A stretch of DNA of 64,000 bases from contig CBDATD010000002.1 in the NCBI GenBank assembly GCA_965199935.1, forward strand, positions 53,282-117,281, in the 5' to 3' direction. Under the pieces are notes generated by a model. It saw only the letters and a list, made by a program, of their open reading frames with translations. It did no database searches and was not told where the DNA came from. The stretch comes from Bdellovibrionales bacterium (GTDB lineage: Bacteria; Bdellovibrionota; Bdellovibrionia; Bdellovibrionales; UBA1609). The position numbers were made by a program, and so were the translations under genes. Shown piece by piece: positions 57,046 through 61,157 of the stretch; the first letter of the stretch is position 1; each line of letters begins with the position of its first letter.

Positions 57046-57804
57046 ATGTTTGATTGGAAAATGATTGATGAAAAAAAAACACAGTTGGATAAACTGCGTC
57101 CTTTTCCGAAAAGTACTCTGAAAAGCCTTCAAGAAAAAATATCTTTAGAGTGGACCTATCACTCTAATGCCATCGAAGGCAACACTCTTACATTAAAAGA
57201 AACAAAAGTGGCTCTAGAAGGGATCACCATCGGAGGTAAAAGTGTTCGAGAACACTTGGAAGCCATTAACCATAAAGATGCTATTCAATATTTATATGAA
57301 ATTATAAAAAACAAAGAAAAACTCAGCGAATGGCAAATCAAGCAAATTCACGCTCTCATTCTTAAAAAAATTGATCCAAAAAATGCAGGGGCTTATCGAA
57401 AAGAAAATGTATTAATTTCCGGTGCAAAGCATATACCGCCGGATCATATCCATGTTTCTGACGAAATGAAAAATCTTCTCAGCTGTTATAAGACAAAATG
57501 GAAAGACTTACATCCTTTAGAGCGGGCTTCTTTACTTCATATTGATTTTGTTAAAATCCACCCTTTTACAGATGGAAATGGAAGGACTTCCCGCTTGCTT
57601 CAAAACTTTGAACTCATAAAAGAAGGGTTTCCTCCTATTGTTATCAAAAAGGAAAAAAGGTTAGAATATTATGATGCCTTAGATAAAGCACACACAGAAG
57701 GGGATTGTACAGATTTTATGAAACTGTCTGCTGAATGTTTGGAGAAATCTCTTGATTTATACTTGCAAACGGTATGTTCCATTCACTCAGAAAATTCTAA
57801 AAAA
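57046..57804 (+). CDS. Fic-domain portion of a Fic-linker-HsdR(N) ORF (57046-58200)
   Basis: Canonical HPFTDGNGRTSR motif and inhibitory SNAIEGN motif; no stop before the HsdR sequence. Confidence 0.9.
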
Positions 57805-57930
57805 CTGGATTCCCGCTTTCACGGGAATGACGGGGCCAACAGGAACGATGAGTTTAGAGGGAATGATGAGGTTAACAGAAACGATAAAACTCAGAGGAGT
57901 GATAAGGTTCGTGGGAATGACGAAAGTATA
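57805..57930 (+). repeat. dRS3/RPE-like palindrome followed by six degenerate 18-nt units, in frame
   Basis: ATTCCC-N8-GGGAAT at 57809-57828; units at 57823, 57841, 57859, 57877, 57895, 57913 encoding (G/R)(N/S)D. Confidence 0.8.
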
Positions 57931-60900
57931 AAGAGGCCGTCGTTTAGAGAAGATGAAAGCTCGCAGATTCCAGCTCTCCAATTACTGCAAAATATGGGAT
58001 GGACTTATTTAGAGCCAGAAGAAGCCTTAAATTTCCGCAAAAACAATGCTGGAAATGTGCTGTTAGAAGACATATTAGAATCTCAACTGAGAAACATAAA
58101 TCAAATCAAACATAAAGGGTCTCTGTACCAATTTAGAGATGTCAATATCTCAAACGCCGTCCATGAACTCAAAACAATGCCTTTTGGACGGGTTGATTAA
58201 AACCAGTGAGAAAATATTTGATCTTCTCACTTTAGGCAAAAGTTATATGGAGAATATACAAGGAGATCGAAAAAGCTATGATTTAAAATACATTGATTGG
58301 GATCAGCCGGGAAACAACGTCTACCATGTGACAGATGAGTATAATGTGGAAACATCCCTTTTTGACGGCAGTCACAGACAGCCGGACATTGTTCTTTTCA
58401 TAAACGGCATTCCTATAGTTGTTATTGAGTGCAAAAGGCCGGATATTTCTGATCCTGTAGAAGAAGCTATTTCACAACATATCAGGAATCAAAAAAATAG
58501 AGAAATTCCTCAACTCTTTACATTTTCTCAAATATTGATAGCTTTGTGTCCAAGTAATAGTAATAAAAATAAGAATCGATGTATGTACGGCACTACGGGA
58601 ACGGAAAGGAAATTTTGGTATCCCTGGAAAGAACAAACACCACCTGAAGAAGAACTGGAACAATTAGTCAATGCACCTCTTTCACAAGAGAAAAAAGAAA
58701 AACTTTTTGCCGGTAGATATCAGTATAGCAAAGAATATTTCGATGAGCTTGAAAAATTCTCAAGGAAAATAACTCATCAAGATAAATTGCTTTATAGTTT
58801 GTGCCGGCCTGAAAGGGTGCTGGAATTGATTAAGAAATTTGTTCTCTACGATGCCGGTGTGAAAAAAATAGCCCGCTATCAACAGTATTTTGCAGTCAAG
58901 GATACTATCAAGAGAATTACCAACGTGGAGTCTGATCAAAAAAGACCAGAGTGGAGTCATCTGGCACACTCAAGGAAGCGGCAAGTCCATTTCTATGGTG
59001 ATGTTGGCTAAAGCTATAGCAATGGAATCGAAAATAAAAAATCCAAAAGTGATTCTCATTACAGATCGAGTGAATCTAGATGAACAAATTTATAAAACAT
59101 TTGATAACTGTCAAGTGCCTTTAAAGCGGGCAAAAAGCGGCACCCATCTTATTGAGATTCTAAGATCTTATAAATCTACAGTGATTGCAACAACTGTTTT
59201 CAAATTTGATACGGTAGCTAATTCTAAGGGGACGACTTTAGATTCCAATGATATTATTGTCCTTGTAGATGAAGCACATAGAACACAGTACGGAGAGTCT
59301 AATGCGAAAGTTCGAAAAGTTTTTCCCAATGCTTGCTTTATTGCCTACACCGGCACCCCTTTGACAAAAAAAGAAAAACACACAATGGCAAAATTTGGGA
59401 AAATTATCGGTCGTCCTTACACCAGTCGGGATGCTTTAGATGATAAAGCTATTGTACCTCTTTTATACGAAGGCCGGCTGGTTCCTCAAGAAATTAACAA
59501 AAATCTTTTAGATAGAATGTTTGAAAGGATTACAAAGGATCTTTCAGAAAAACAGAAAGCAGATCTGAAAAATAAATATAACCGTAGTCAACAATTGGCT
59601 AAAACAGAGCAAAGAATGCGCATGATTGCCATGGATATTAGCTCGCACTTTTCTAGATTGTGGAAAGGAAAAGGATTCAAAGGACAGTTAGCGGTAAATT
59701 CTATAGCCAGTGCTTTGAAATATAAAAAATATTTTGATGAACTGGGAGAAGTTTCCACTGCCGTTATTATTTCACAGCCGGATGACAGGAAAGGTCATAA
59801 ACAAACTCAGGAAGATGAAACACTCAAACAACAGCACGAAAGGAAAATAAAGGAAAGATTTAACAGCTATCAAGAGTACGAAAAAGCAATGATTGCTAAA
59901 TTTGACAGTGAAGAAGAACCGGATATTTTAATTGTTGTCTATAAACTTCTCACTGGGTTTGATGTTCCTAGAAACACCATCCTTTACATTGACAGACCCT
60001 TTTCAGAAAACCATGAGCTGTTGCAGGCAACAGCTCGAGTAAATAGAGTATTCTCCAATAAAGAATTTGGTTACGTTATAGACTATCACGGCAATTTAAA
60101 AACTTTTTTAGATGCTGTTTCTCATTACGACGATTTAGCTCAAAAAACTCAAAATATAGAAATGGATTCAGATGGAAGACAGGAAGTGCAAAACTCTATC
60201 CGGAATATAAAAGAAGAAGTGGATAAACTGCCCCAATACTATGCTGACCTTATTGGATTGTTTAGTTCAGTAACAAATAAGAAAGATTTAGGTGCTTACG
60301 AAAACAACCTCTTTGATGAAGAAAAAAGAGAAGATTTTTATGAAAAATTTTCTCAATTTGGAAAATGCCTGCATCAAGCTCTTTCCTCTTCTGACTTTAT
60401 AACAAAAACACCTTCTGCTCAAATCAAAAAGTACAAGGAAGAACTGAAGTTTTTTTGTAAATTAAAAAATCACATCCAAAAAATATATGTTGAAAGTGTT
60501 GATTACAAAGATTATGAACCAAAAATTGAAAACCTTTTAAACACTTATGTGCAGGCAGAAGAAATAAAAACAGTTGTTCCTTTGGTGAATATCTATGACA
60601 AAACATTCAACTCAGAGCTGGAAGGCAAAAACACTAAATCGAAAGCTTTAATGATACTGCACCATACTAGAAAATATATTTCAGATAATATGGAAAAGGA
60701 TCGTGTTTTTTATGAGAGGCTTTCAAGACTCCTTCAAAAGACTTTAAACGAATATCGAGAACACCGTATTAATGAAAGTGAGTTGCTCAAACAAGCTGTG
60801 AAACTAAAAGATGAGGCGTTAACTCGGACTGGTGACAATCTGCCCTCTTCTTTGGAAGGAAAAGATGAAGCAAAAGCTTTTTTTGGCATCTTAAAAAATG

Positions 60901-61157
60901 TGATTGAACAGGAAAATAATCTCAGTGGAACACATATAAATAAATTAGCAGATATGAGCATAAAGATTGCTCAAATTATTGAAGAACATCGTATTGTTGA
61001 TTGGTTTAAGAATATAGACATTCAAAATAGAATTAAAAATAAAATAGAAGACTATCTTTATGAGCAAAAGGAGAATGGAGAAATTTCTATTAGTCTTGAT
61101 TCCATGGATCGTATCATGGAGGAAACGATTAAAACAGCCAAGAGCCAAAACTTATGA
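57931..61157 (+). pseudogene. hsdR: Type I restriction subunit R, two +1 frameshifts
   Basis: PSF.ED..SQIPALQLL, PDIVLFINGIP.VVIECK, RYQQY, WHTQGSGKS, DEAH, TGTP, LLTGFD; shifts near 58182-87 and 58938-47. Confidence 0.93.

What the first reader, a model, noticed from the sequence alone, without database searches (positions are those of the whole stretch)
57046..61157. In-frame Fic toxin-HsdR fusion at the head of the type I restriction subunit
Seen: a complete Fic domain (HPFTDGNGRTSR plus the SNAIEGN inhibitory motif) runs without a stop into the typical HsdR N-terminus (PSFREDESSQIPALQLL). HsdR has no in-frame ATG of its own there. Removing two single bases gives one 1369-aa ORF. Established: Fic enzymes AMPylate targets and the (S/T)xxxE(G/N) helix auto-inhibits them; EcoprrI couples the PrrC toxin to a type I R-M complex. 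Inference: this could be a covalent toxin-guarded restriction subunit, a back-up abortive defence triggered by anti-restriction proteins. It could equally be an accidental fusion caused by the palindrome insertion.
Basis: partly seen in the sequence, partly recalled or inferred. Interest (0 to 1): 0.65.

Follow-up and report, generated by a model that had tools for sequence, protein, structure and literature searches.

The report
Fic enzyme fused to restriction subunit
A protein-modifying Fic enzyme really is fused in frame to the front of the DNA-cutting motor subunit (HsdR) of a type I restriction system; intact relatives keep the same fusion, no paper found here describes it, and the two frame breaks in this copy are probably assembly errors.

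Summary
Observation confirmed. ORF 57046-58200 carries a complete class II Fic domain (SNAIEGN, HPFTDGNGRTSR), a 54-aa linker and the HsdR head with no stop. HsdR has no start codon of its own. Removing two single bases gives 1369 aa.

The fusion is not an accident of the palindrome. Fifteen protein clusters (14 full length) hold intact Fic-HsdR ORFs of 1269-1727 aa. The closest group (Fic part 66-81% identical, Oligoflexia/Bdellovibrionales MAGs) has the same operon order, and several members lack the palindrome. HsdR and Fic trees need at least 3-4 independent recruitments. Other loci, including a RefSeq Methylobacter plasmid, have fic directly upstream of hsdR with an ATGA stop/start overlap. 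That is the likely precursor state.

Both halves are under strong purifying selection (dN/dS about 0.06-0.12), also on the window's lineage. The two +1 frame breaks in hsdR are probably assembly errors, because the same assembly splits its only dnaE into three frames and also breaks der, purM and mutS.

Proposed function (inferred, untested): an auto-inhibited FICD/SoFic-like AMP-transferase tethered to the restriction motor as a second defence arm or regulator. It is a new variant of the known "toxin gene embedded in a type I R-M locus" theme. No paper describing it was found.

The parts
57046..57768 (+). Class II (FICD/SoFic-like) Fic AMP-transferase domain. Inhibitory-helix motif SNAIEGN at 57163-57183; catalytic motif HPFTDGNGRTSR at 57559-57594; FICD-type GGKS(V) at 57232-57243.
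   Evidence: Pfam Fic E 7e-23. PADLOC PDC-S04 6.7e-43 and SoFic 2.6e-37. PDB best hit human FICD 1.4e-42. Motif coordinates. Both motifs are invariant in the fused proteins aligned. dN/dS about 0.06-0.08.
57769..57933 (+). 54-aa low-complexity linker (VCSIHSENSKKLDSRFHGNDGANRNDEFRGNDEVNRNDKTQRSDKVRGNDESIK). It is built from a palindromic-element remnant: hairpin ATTCCCGCTTTCACGGGAAT at 57809-57828 plus degenerate GGGAATGA(C/T)GA echoes. The remnant is flanked by the 9-nt inverted repeat TTTATACTT / AAGTATAAA (57756-57764 / 57924-57932).
   Evidence: Repeats. Essentially single-copy in the genome. Homologous to linker 2 of L096, including the left flank. The linker is hypervariable in relatives and absent in this form from P0007, P0010 and P0004. 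The AF2 model of P0007's linker has pLDDT 24-35.
57934..58200 (+). HsdR head in the Fic frame (RPSFREDESSQIPALQLLQNMGW...). It corresponds to residues about 3-90 of unfused orthologues, which start M-x(2-4)-PSF(K/Q/I)ED.
   Evidence: Pfam HSDR_N aa 300-368. Unfused orthologue starts.
58163..58172 (+). First +1 frame break (one extra base; window CCTTTTGGACGGG versus relatives CCTTTTGAA-GG).
   Evidence: DNA alignment to L095 and L096. Frames.
58139..59011 (+). HsdR nuclease domain in frame 2. PD-(D/E)xK core DIVLFINGIPIVVIECK at 58385-58435.
   Evidence: Pfam HSDR_N 70-181, E 2.3e-27. Motif. D/E/C/K are invariant in fused relatives.
58945..58950 (+). Second +1 frame break (window CCAGAGTGGAGTC versus L096 CCAGA-TGGAGTC).
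58890..61157 (+). HsdR SF2 motor and C-terminal domain in frame 3. Walker A TQGSGKS at 58968-58988; DEAH at 59268-59282; QATARVNR at 60024-60047.
   Evidence: Pfam SWI2_SNF2 2.5e-70, T1R_D3-like 1.5e-22, ResIII, T1RH-like_C 2.2e-14. Motifs. dN/dS about 0.10.
61154..61885 (+). YgjP/SprT-like zinc metalloprotease. Its start overlaps the hsdR stop.
   Evidence: Pfam YgjP-like 1.8e-51. A homologue lies directly downstream of hsdR in 54 of 75 related loci and in L095, L096 and L101.
49165..53912 (+). Cognate methylase module: half hsdS (49165-49770), hsdM (49775-51286), Bro-N gene (51406-51783), PD-T7-4/DUF4145 gene (51768-52568) and full hsdS (52662-53912).
   Evidence: Pfam. PADLOC. Same order in L096 and L101.

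Best explanation
This is a genuine member of a small, evolutionarily maintained family in which a class II Fic AMP-transferase (closest to human FICD and to the stand-alone defence-associated Fics PDC-S04/SoFic) is covalently joined by a floppy linker to the N-terminus of HsdR. HsdR is the nuclease-motor subunit of a type I restriction-modification system. The locus sits in a low-GC defence island between uvrB and tRNA-Leu.

Shown:
- Relatives carry the fusion as one intact ORF, in the same operon order.
- The fusion arose several times.
- Both halves are under purifying selection.
- The palindromic element in the linker is a later passenger, not the cause of the fusion.

Inferred origin (about 0.8): fic was cargo immediately upstream of hsdR, translationally coupled by an ATGA stop/start overlap. 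A small change at that overlap welded the two genes.

Inferred status here (about 0.7-0.75): the two +1 breaks in hsdR are consensus errors of the assembly, so the organism probably makes the full 1369-aa protein.

Inferred mechanism (about 0.35-0.4): the Fic domain is held inactive by its own inhibitory glutamate (E44) and is delivered in 1:1 stoichiometry to wherever the restriction motor works. When restriction is blocked, stalled or overwhelmed (for example by DNA-mimic anti-restriction proteins), the tethered Fic is released from auto-inhibition. It then AMPylates a host or phage protein and aborts the infection. This would be a covalent version of the PrrC-EcoprrI arrangement.
For: Intact fusions:
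- 15 clusters carry Fic together with HsdR or helicase Pfam domains. Fourteen are full-length ORFs of 1269-1727 aa; the fifteenth, P0013 (949 aa), lies on a 4-kb contig.
- In the 13 sequences used for the trees, the Fic catalytic motif and the HsdR Walker A motif lie in one chain. Nine of them were read in full.
- L095 and L096 translate exactly to P0007 and P0003.

Synteny: hsdS'-hsdM-BroN-hsdS-Fic(Fic)HsdR-YgjP in L096.

Independent origins:
- The HsdR tree needs at least 3 changes of the 'fused' label, forced by starred branches.
- In the Fic tree, clade A domain 1, clade A domain 2, P0011 and P0014-16 are separate lineages.

Precursor state:
- L015 and the RefSeq plasmid NZ_CP091425.1 have fic and hsdR overlapping by ATGA.
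- Unfused orthologues begin M-x(2-4)-PSF.ED, exactly where the linker ends in the fusions.

Selection:
- Catalytic H-P-F-D-G-N-G-R-T-R and inhibitory S-N-E-G-N are invariant across fused proteins that are only 33-46% identical overall.
- dN/dS is 0.06-0.08 for Fic and 0.10-0.12 for HsdR, with no rise on the window's lineage.
- The window's terminal branch (0.12) is like those of intact relatives.

Palindrome as passenger.

Assembly errors:
- The only dnaE is split into PHP | NTPase | finger-HHH-OB in three frames, at A-runs.
- der, purM, pstB and mutS are also split.
- Candidate frame breaks are spread evenly, about 5.8 per 50 kb in every bin.

Defence role of the Fic type:
- PADLOC hits to PDC-S04 and SoFic.
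- SoFic is thought to act as an AMPylating abortive-infection toxin and carries a class 2 inhibitory helix (PMC12249575).
Against: - No experiment or read data were available.
- The Fic target, its trigger and even the direction of its activity are unknown. FICD-type enzymes are de-AMPylases in their default state, which fits a regulator as well as a toxin.
- The fusion is rare: 15 clusters, against 778 50%-identity representatives of this Fic type at E<1e-30, nearly all of the top 150 being stand-alone proteins of 150-540 aa.
- The ATGA overlap makes accidental fusion mutationally easy.
- None of 60 relatives, including three same-genus genomes, carries the locus, so there is no vertical conservation.
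- Four frame breaks in 5.9 kb (hsdR plus the AriAB-like gene) are somewhat more than the genome-wide candidate density predicts, so real inactivation is not excluded.
- The AF2 model was too poor to say anything about a Fic-HsdR interface.
Confidence: 0.6

Rival explanations
1. The Fic domain is a built-in regulator of the restriction enzyme rather than a toxin. It would AMPylate or de-AMPylate HsdR itself, HsdM or a partner, switching restriction off when the host's own DNA is unmodified (restriction alleviation) or on after assembly.
For: The closest solved relatives are FICD enzymes. From established knowledge, these are bifunctional and use the same glutamate for de-AMPylation. The FICD dimer-relay residues G-K-S-(L/V) are conserved (G64 and K65 invariant). 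A covalent tether favours action in cis. The tandem double-Fic variants could mimic a FICD dimer.
Against: Stand-alone relatives of this Fic are catalogued as defence genes without any HsdR. No conserved acceptor residue in HsdR was identified. Most HsdR of the same clade work without a Fic.
Confidence: 0.25
2. In this bacterium the locus is truly inactivated (R-minus, M-plus). The two +1 frameshifts are real. The cell makes only a 384-aa product (Fic plus 54-aa linker plus 88 aa of HsdR head) and no restriction subunit.
For: There are two breaks in hsdR and two in the neighbouring AriAB-like gene, while hsdM and hsdS are intact. Neither hsdR break lies in a long homopolymer. A second, unbroken 1076-codon frame matching HsdR lies at C1:814365-816806 and could make this copy dispensable.
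Against: The same assembly breaks its only dnaE twice, mutS three times, and der and purM, which cannot all be real. Candidate breaks are evenly spread over the genome. There are no in-frame stops, no excess of non-synonymous change and no long branch on the window lineage.
Confidence: 0.25
3. The fusion is functionally neutral. fic is ordinary defence-island cargo that happens to sit in front of hsdR. Fusions arise easily from the ATGA overlap and persist because they do no harm. The two activities are independent.
For: The ATGA-overlap precursors make fusion a one-step event. Type I operons host many unrelated cargo genes, as in this island (PD-T7-4, Bro-N, AriAB-like). The fused form is rare.
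Against: There were at least 3-4 independent recruitments. Clade A has diversified (HsdR part of the window at most 80% identical to other members; overall identity to P0007 falls to 65%) while keeping the fusion, and some members added a second Fic of different origin. Purifying selection acts on both parts. Linkers vary from about 20 to more than 150 aa without ever regaining a stop.
Confidence: 0.1
4. This is an accidental fusion created by insertion of the palindromic element between fic and hsdR.
For: The element fills most of the linker, and no HsdR start codon remains.
Against: P0007, P0010, P0004, P0008 and P0009 are fused without the element. The element is shared, with its flank, with linker 2 of L096, which also has copies elsewhere. 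The fusion is therefore older than, or independent of, the element.
Confidence: 0.03

Closest known systems
Separate, translationally coupled fic-hsdR pair in annotated type I R-M operons, e.g. Methylobacter sp. YRD-M1 plasmid NZ_CP091425.1 (Fic family protein WP_268120962.1 and type I R subunit WP_268120963.1)
   Same: The operon order is the same: hsdS'-hsdM-cargo-hsdS-fic-hsdR-SprT/YgjP protease. The Fic is 58.6% identical to the window's and of the same ~250-aa minimal class II type. The HsdR is 36% identical to P0007 over 1054 aa.
   Different: There are two genes with a 4-nt ATGA overlap. In the window and its clade they form one polypeptide joined by a linker.
PrrC anticodon nuclease / EcoprrI (and RloC, rlo genes): a latent toxin embedded in a type I R-M locus
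   Same: A latent toxic enzyme is genetically and physically coupled to a type I restriction enzyme. It is thought to act as a back-up when the phage disables restriction (established knowledge, recalled, not tested here).
   Different: PrrC is a separate protein of unrelated fold (an ABC-ATPase-like tRNA nuclease) held non-covalently. Here the candidate effector is a Fic AMP-transferase fused to HsdR. No activation signal is known.
SoFic and PADLOC candidate PDC-S04 (single-gene Fic anti-phage defence)
   Same: A class II Fic core with an N-terminal inhibitory helix and a canonical catalytic loop. Profile hits are 2.6e-37 (SoFic) and 6.7e-43 (PDC-S04). SoFic is thought to act by AMPylation-driven abortive infection (PMC12249575).
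   Different: SoFic has its own C-terminal domain and, in E. coli, a small antitoxin AS1. The window's Fic matches only positions 56-276 of the 361-position SoFic model, lacks that C-terminal domain, and carries HsdR instead.
Human FICD (HYPE) and bacterial class II Fic enzymes
   Same: FICD is the best solved-structure match (E 1.4e-42 over aa 8-241). The TxAIEGN inhibitory motif, the catalytic loop and the GKS(L/V) dimer-relay stretch are shared.
   Different: FICD has a TM anchor and TPR repeats and acts on BiP in the ER. Here the core is bare and is fused to a bacterial restriction subunit.
Rickettsia palindromic elements / Neisseria dRS3-type palindromes translated inside genes
   Same: An ATTCCC-N8-GGGAAT hairpin element lies in frame inside a coding region, in a tolerant linker.
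   Different: It is not a repeat family in this genome (one copy plus one 24-nt hairpin). It was probably carried in with the island from a donor in which it is repeated (3 hairpins in 16 kb of L096).

Membership tests
Fic/Fido family (PF02661) | Catalytic loop HxFx(D/E)GNGRxxR on a Fic-fold core | tested here: met
   HPFTDGNGRTSR at aa 172-183. Pfam Fic E 7e-23, above the gathering score.
Class II Fic (intramolecular N-terminal inhibitory helix) | (S/T)xxxE(G/N) motif N-terminal to the core in the same chain | tested here: met
   SNAIEGN at aa 40-46, 126 residues before the catalytic His. It aligns with FICD TVAIEGN and is invariant in fused relatives.
Class II Fic | AMP-transferase or de-AMPylase activity, auto-inhibited by the glutamate | not testable with these tools
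   Needs enzyme assays on wild type, H172A and E44G.
SoFic defence system (PADLOC PDLC03963) | Full-length SoFic architecture (Fic core plus C-terminal domain) as a stand-alone gene | tested here: not met
   The hit is 2.6e-37 but covers only model positions 56-276 of 361. There is no C-terminal domain, and the chain continues into HsdR.
Type I restriction subunit HsdR | N-terminal PD-(D/E)xK nuclease domain, SF2 motor and C-terminal assembly domain | tested here: met
   HSDR_N, SWI2_SNF2, ResIII, T1R_D3-like and T1RH-like_C. D...ECK, TQGSGKS and DEAH motifs. PADLOC REase_I 4e-196 for the orthologue P0007.
Type I restriction subunit HsdR | Cognate hsdM and hsdS in the same operon | tested here: met
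   hsdM at 49775-51286 and hsdS at 52662-53912, on the same strand.
Type I restriction subunit HsdR | One uninterrupted reading frame | tested here: inconclusive
   The assembly shows two +1 breaks. The assembly also breaks dnaE, der and mutS, and reads could not be consulted.
PrrC/EcoprrI-type latent toxin guarded by a type I enzyme | PrrC-family anticodon nuclease | tested here: not met
   No such domain is present. The attached enzyme is a Fic. The resemblance is functional analogy only.
PrrC/EcoprrI-type latent toxin guarded by a type I enzyme | Activation by a phage anti-restriction factor | not testable with these tools
   Needs phage challenge with and without Ocr/ArdA/Stp-like inhibitors.
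Multi-copy palindromic element (RPE / dRS3-like) | Many dispersed copies in the same genome | tested here: not met
   The 159-nt linker segment is unique, apart from one 24-nt hairpin at C1:929044-929067.

The most novel reading that the evidence does not exclude
Fic-HsdR is a hard-wired 'guarded restriction enzyme'. The Fic domains of an assembled R2M2S1 complex stay auto-inhibited, or act as de-AMPylases, possibly by pairing through the FICD-type interface. In some relatives the pairing could be between two tandem Fic domains of different origin. When a phage or plasmid anti-restriction protein, or a stalled or overwhelmed motor, disturbs HsdR, the Fic switches to AMPylation of an essential host or phage protein and aborts the infection. 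Recurrent independent fusions would then mark a general, previously unrecognised coupling between type I restriction and protein AMPylation.
Probability: 0.3. Interest if true: 0.8.

Novelty: new variant of a known kind. Interest (0 to 1): 0.55.

Why it matters
Type I R-M loci are known to shelter latent toxins such as PrrC and RloC, and Fic proteins such as SoFic are known defence effectors with unknown targets and triggers. A covalent Fic-HsdR, re-invented several times and kept under purifying selection, is 'Rosetta stone' evidence that the two activities work together. It offers a simple one-operon system for two open questions: what activates a class II Fic in bacteria, and how restriction failure is sensed. 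It also shows how ATGA-coupled cargo genes can be welded onto a core defence subunit. For annotation, these proteins are currently named only 'HsdR family type I site-specific deoxyribonuclease', which hides the extra enzyme. For this genome, the result is also a warning that single-base frame breaks are not evidence of pseudogenes.

Tried and rejected
- Exact-protein look-ups of the 384-aa ORF and of P0001 found nothing.
- A metagenome scan with a pattern spanning frame break 2, tolerant of 1-3 bases at the break, gave 0 hits.
- A metagenome scan for close relatives of the read-through protein gave only four unfused HsdR at 41-47% identity.
- A search of 60 relatives' genomes found that none has the fusion and that same-genus genomes lack the island.
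- The genome-contig scan found no in-frame fusion among the 80 best loci of species representatives. It found only adjacent or nearby fic genes.
- The AF2 model of the first 600 aa of P0007, built on 9 sequences, had mean pLDDT 62 and pTM 0.43. It was too poor for a fold search or for judging a domain interface. Only the disordered linker is worth noting.
- The direction of frame breaks genome-wide is balanced (82 versus 85), so it gives no technology signature.
- The idea that frame breaks concentrate in defence genes was rejected as a genome-wide statement.
- Programmed frameshifting was rejected: the relatives are in frame at both sites.
- Six literature searches found no description of a Fic-HsdR fusion.
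- The top 150 of the 50%-identity representative library did not list the fused relatives at all. Presumably they are represented by other cluster members. This is unexplained.
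Full report
**1. What is in the sequence**

- The ORF 57046..58200 (384 aa) is open from a good start (AAGGA 8-12 nt upstream of the ATG).
- Pfam places a Fic domain at aa 93-188 (E 7e-23). The beginning of HSDR_N is at aa 300-368 of the same ORF.
  - SNAIEGN at aa 40-46;
  - HPFTDGNGRTSR at aa 172-183;
  - RPSFREDESSQIPALQLL at aa 297-314.
- Between codon 240 and codon 317 there is no in-frame ATG, GTG or TTG.
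- HsdR continues in frame 2 (58139..59011; nuclease core DIVLFINGIPIVVIECK). It then continues in frame 3 (58890..61157; SWI2/SNF2 motor, domain 3, C-terminal domain).
- Removing one base at each break gives one ORF of 1369 aa.

**2. Context**

- The gene is the last core gene of a type I R-M operon. The order is: half hsdS, hsdM, a Bro-N gene, a PD-T7-4/DUF4145 gene, hsdS, an unknown 268-aa protein, an AriA/AriAB-like (PARIS-type) ATPase-Toprim gene in three frames, Fic-HsdR, and a YgjP/SprT-like metalloprotease whose start overlaps the hsdR stop.
- The island (49165-61885) has 33.8% GC against 40% for the rest of the window. It lies between uvrB and tRNA-Leu(caa).
- The genome is a 1.44-Mb, two-contig assembly. 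Earlier notes of this scan call it an uncultured Bdellovibrio-like bacterium.
- Three same-genus genomes and 57 further relatives lack the locus, so it is accessory DNA.

**3. Is the fusion real or an accident?**

A search restricted to the Fic part, but admitting only long proteins, found 15 clusters in which Fic co-occurs with HsdR or helicase domains.

- Eleven clusters (P0001-P0011, 1309-1727 aa) have Fic parts 52-81% identical to the window's. Two of them carry source names: Bdellovibrionales and Oligoflexia MAGs.
- Three clusters (P0014-P0016, 1269-1296 aa) are 43-44% identical. One of them is named a Chrysiogenetes MAG.
- One further cluster, P0013 (949 aa, Fic plus ResIII/DEAD), lies on a 4-kb contig.

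In the 13 sequences used for the trees, the Fic motif and the HsdR Walker A motif lie in one chain. Nine of them were read in full.

Two were checked at the DNA level and translate exactly:

- L095 carries P0007 (1341 aa) followed by ygjP.
- L096 carries hsdS'-hsdM-BroN-hsdS-P0003 (1706 aa)-ygjP, the same order as in the window.

The HsdR head '(A/I/V/K)RPSFREDESSQIPALQLL' is conserved in the window's clade. The linker before it is hypervariable (about 20 to more than 150 aa) and low in complexity.

**4. Role of the palindrome**

- The linker contains ATTCCCGCTTTCACGGGAAT (57809-57828) and degenerate GGGAATGA(C/T)GA echoes. It is bracketed by a 9-nt inverted repeat.
- It is essentially unique in this genome.
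- It is homologous, including about 45 nt of left flank, to the element in the second linker of L096. L096 has three such hairpins in 16 kb.
- P0007, P0010, P0004, P0008 and P0009 are fused without it.

The element is therefore a passenger tolerated in a floppy linker, not the cause of the fusion.

**5. Origin of the fusion**

- In species-representative genomes, no in-frame fusion was among the 80 best loci. However, fic lies directly upstream of hsdR in L012, L015, L032 and L035, and elsewhere in the locus in L019, L044, L056 and L060.
- In L015 the fic stop and the hsdR start overlap as ATGA.
- The same is true in a RefSeq record, Methylobacter sp. YRD-M1 plasmid NZ_CP091425.1. Its order is hsdS'-hsdM-PDDEXK-hsdS-Fic-HsdR-SprT. 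Its Fic is 58.6% identical to the window's.
- Unfused orthologues begin M-x(2-4)-PSF(K/Q/I)ED..SQIPALQ, exactly where the linker ends in the fusions.

An HsdR tree of 86 sequences needs at least three changes of the 'fused' state, forced by well-supported branches:

- the window's clade (support 100);
- P0011, nested among unfused Chlorobium and Lentisphaerae sequences;
- P0014-16, in a distant branch.

The sister group of the window's clade contains the fic-adjacent loci L015 and L035.

A Fic tree gives the same picture and adds a fourth event. The second Fic domain of the double-Fic proteins (P0001, P0003, P0004, P0005, P0006) belongs to another lineage, sister to the in-locus Fics of L019 and L044.

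Fusion of an ATGA-coupled neighbour is thus the most likely route, and it happened repeatedly.

**6. Is it functional?**

- Across fused proteins that share only 33-46% identity, the catalytic residues, the inhibitory S-N-x-x-E-G-N, the FICD-type G-K, the nuclease D/E-C-K and the helicase motifs are invariant.
- Between the window, L095 and L096, dN/dS is 0.06-0.08 for the Fic part and 0.10-0.12 for the motor part. It is no higher on the window's lineage.
- The window's terminal branch is as short as those of intact relatives.

**7. The frame breaks**

- Alignment with L095 and L096 places single extra bases at about 58166 and about 58949. Neither is in a long homopolymer.
  - der has its C-terminal domain in another frame, and purM is split.
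  - pstB looks truncated: a 187-codon frame with the Walker motif at position 82.
  - mutS lies in four pieces.
  - The only dnaE is split into PHP | pol III alpha NTPase | finger-HHH-OB in three frames, at A-runs.
- A crude scan finds 167 adjacent same-strand ORF pairs without a plausible start, about 5.8 per 50 kb in every bin.
- A cell cannot live with these genes broken, so the assembly carries consensus indel errors.
- The hsdR breaks, and the two in the AriAB-like gene, are therefore most likely artefacts (about 0.7-0.75). A recent real inactivation cannot be excluded without reads, which were unavailable.

**8. What it most likely does**

- The Fic part is closest to human FICD among solved structures (E 1.4e-42). 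In PADLOC it is closest to candidate PDC-S04 and to SoFic.
- SoFic is a Fic-domain defence protein with a class 2 inhibitory helix. It is thought to cause abortive infection by AMPylation (PMC12249575).
- Nearest Fic relatives are overwhelmingly stand-alone proteins of about 250-330 aa, common on plasmids.
- Shown: an auto-inhibited, catalytically complete Fic is tethered by a disordered linker to a complete restriction motor, repeatedly and under selection.
- Inferred:
  - The tether delivers a latent second effector to the restriction complex, in the manner of PrrC on EcoprrI (about 0.35-0.4).
  - Alternatively the Fic regulates the enzyme itself (about 0.25).
  - Or the fusion is neutral (about 0.1).

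**9. Novelty**

Six full-text searches found no description of a Fic-HsdR fusion. Database records call these proteins simply HsdR. Two earlier follow-ups of this scan reported the same architecture in other genomes. I re-derived their main claims independently here. The finding is a new variant of a known kind: a toxin or cargo gene embedded in a type I R-M locus, and Fic as a defence effector.

Noticed in passing
G000 C2:340931-344302 (outside the window); also C1:471743-474048, C1:~255000-257050, C1:~252000-253400: The only dnaE is split into three frames at A6/A7 runs. mutS is in four pieces. der and purM are each split by one frameshift. This means the assembly has consensus indel errors, so frame breaks in this genome should not be read as pseudogenes.
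   Followed up: yes
window 55096-56888: An AriA/AriAB-like (PARIS-type) AAA_15 ATPase plus a Toprim-like tail lies in three frames. The breaks are at an A8 run (~56030) and at T5A6 (~56430). PADLOC AriA hit 3.5e-40.
   Followed up: partly
window 51406-52568: Two cargo genes sit between hsdM and hsdS: a Bro-N domain protein (PADLOC PDC-S13, 1e-38) and a PD-T7-4/DUF4145 homologue (1e-74).
   Followed up: partly
window 61154-61885 and 54 of 75 related loci: A YgjP/SprT-like zinc metalloprotease gene sits directly downstream of hsdR, often overlapping its stop. This holds whether or not a Fic is present, so it is a conserved but unexplained partner of this HsdR family.
   Followed up: partly
P0001, P0003, P0004, P0005, P0006 (relatives; L096:10001-15121): These relatives have two tandem class II Fic domains in front of HsdR. 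The second Fic comes from a different Fic lineage, related to Fics inside Bacteroidota type I loci. Both domains keep the catalytic and inhibitory motifs.
   Followed up: partly
P0012 (1084 aa): The same Fic lineage (54% identity) is fused to the C-terminal side of a conjugative relaxase (PF03432), which is another mobile-element context.
   Followed up: no
window 53956-55007: A 68-aa ORF and a 268-aa coiled-coil/TM protein of unknown family lie in adjacent frames. They may be one gene with a further frame break near 54159.
   Followed up: no
G000 C1:814365-816806: A second, unbroken 1076-codon frame matches HsdR (27-37% identical to P0007), so the genome likely has another type I system.
   Followed up: no
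G000 C1:929044-929067: This is the only other copy of the linker hairpin (ACTGGATTCCCGCTTTCACGGGA) in the genome. It is intergenic and next to an A/T run, like a terminator.
   Followed up: no
(representative library): The top 150 hits for the Fic domain did not include any of the 66-81% identical fused relatives found. Presumably they are hidden behind other cluster representatives.
   Followed up: no
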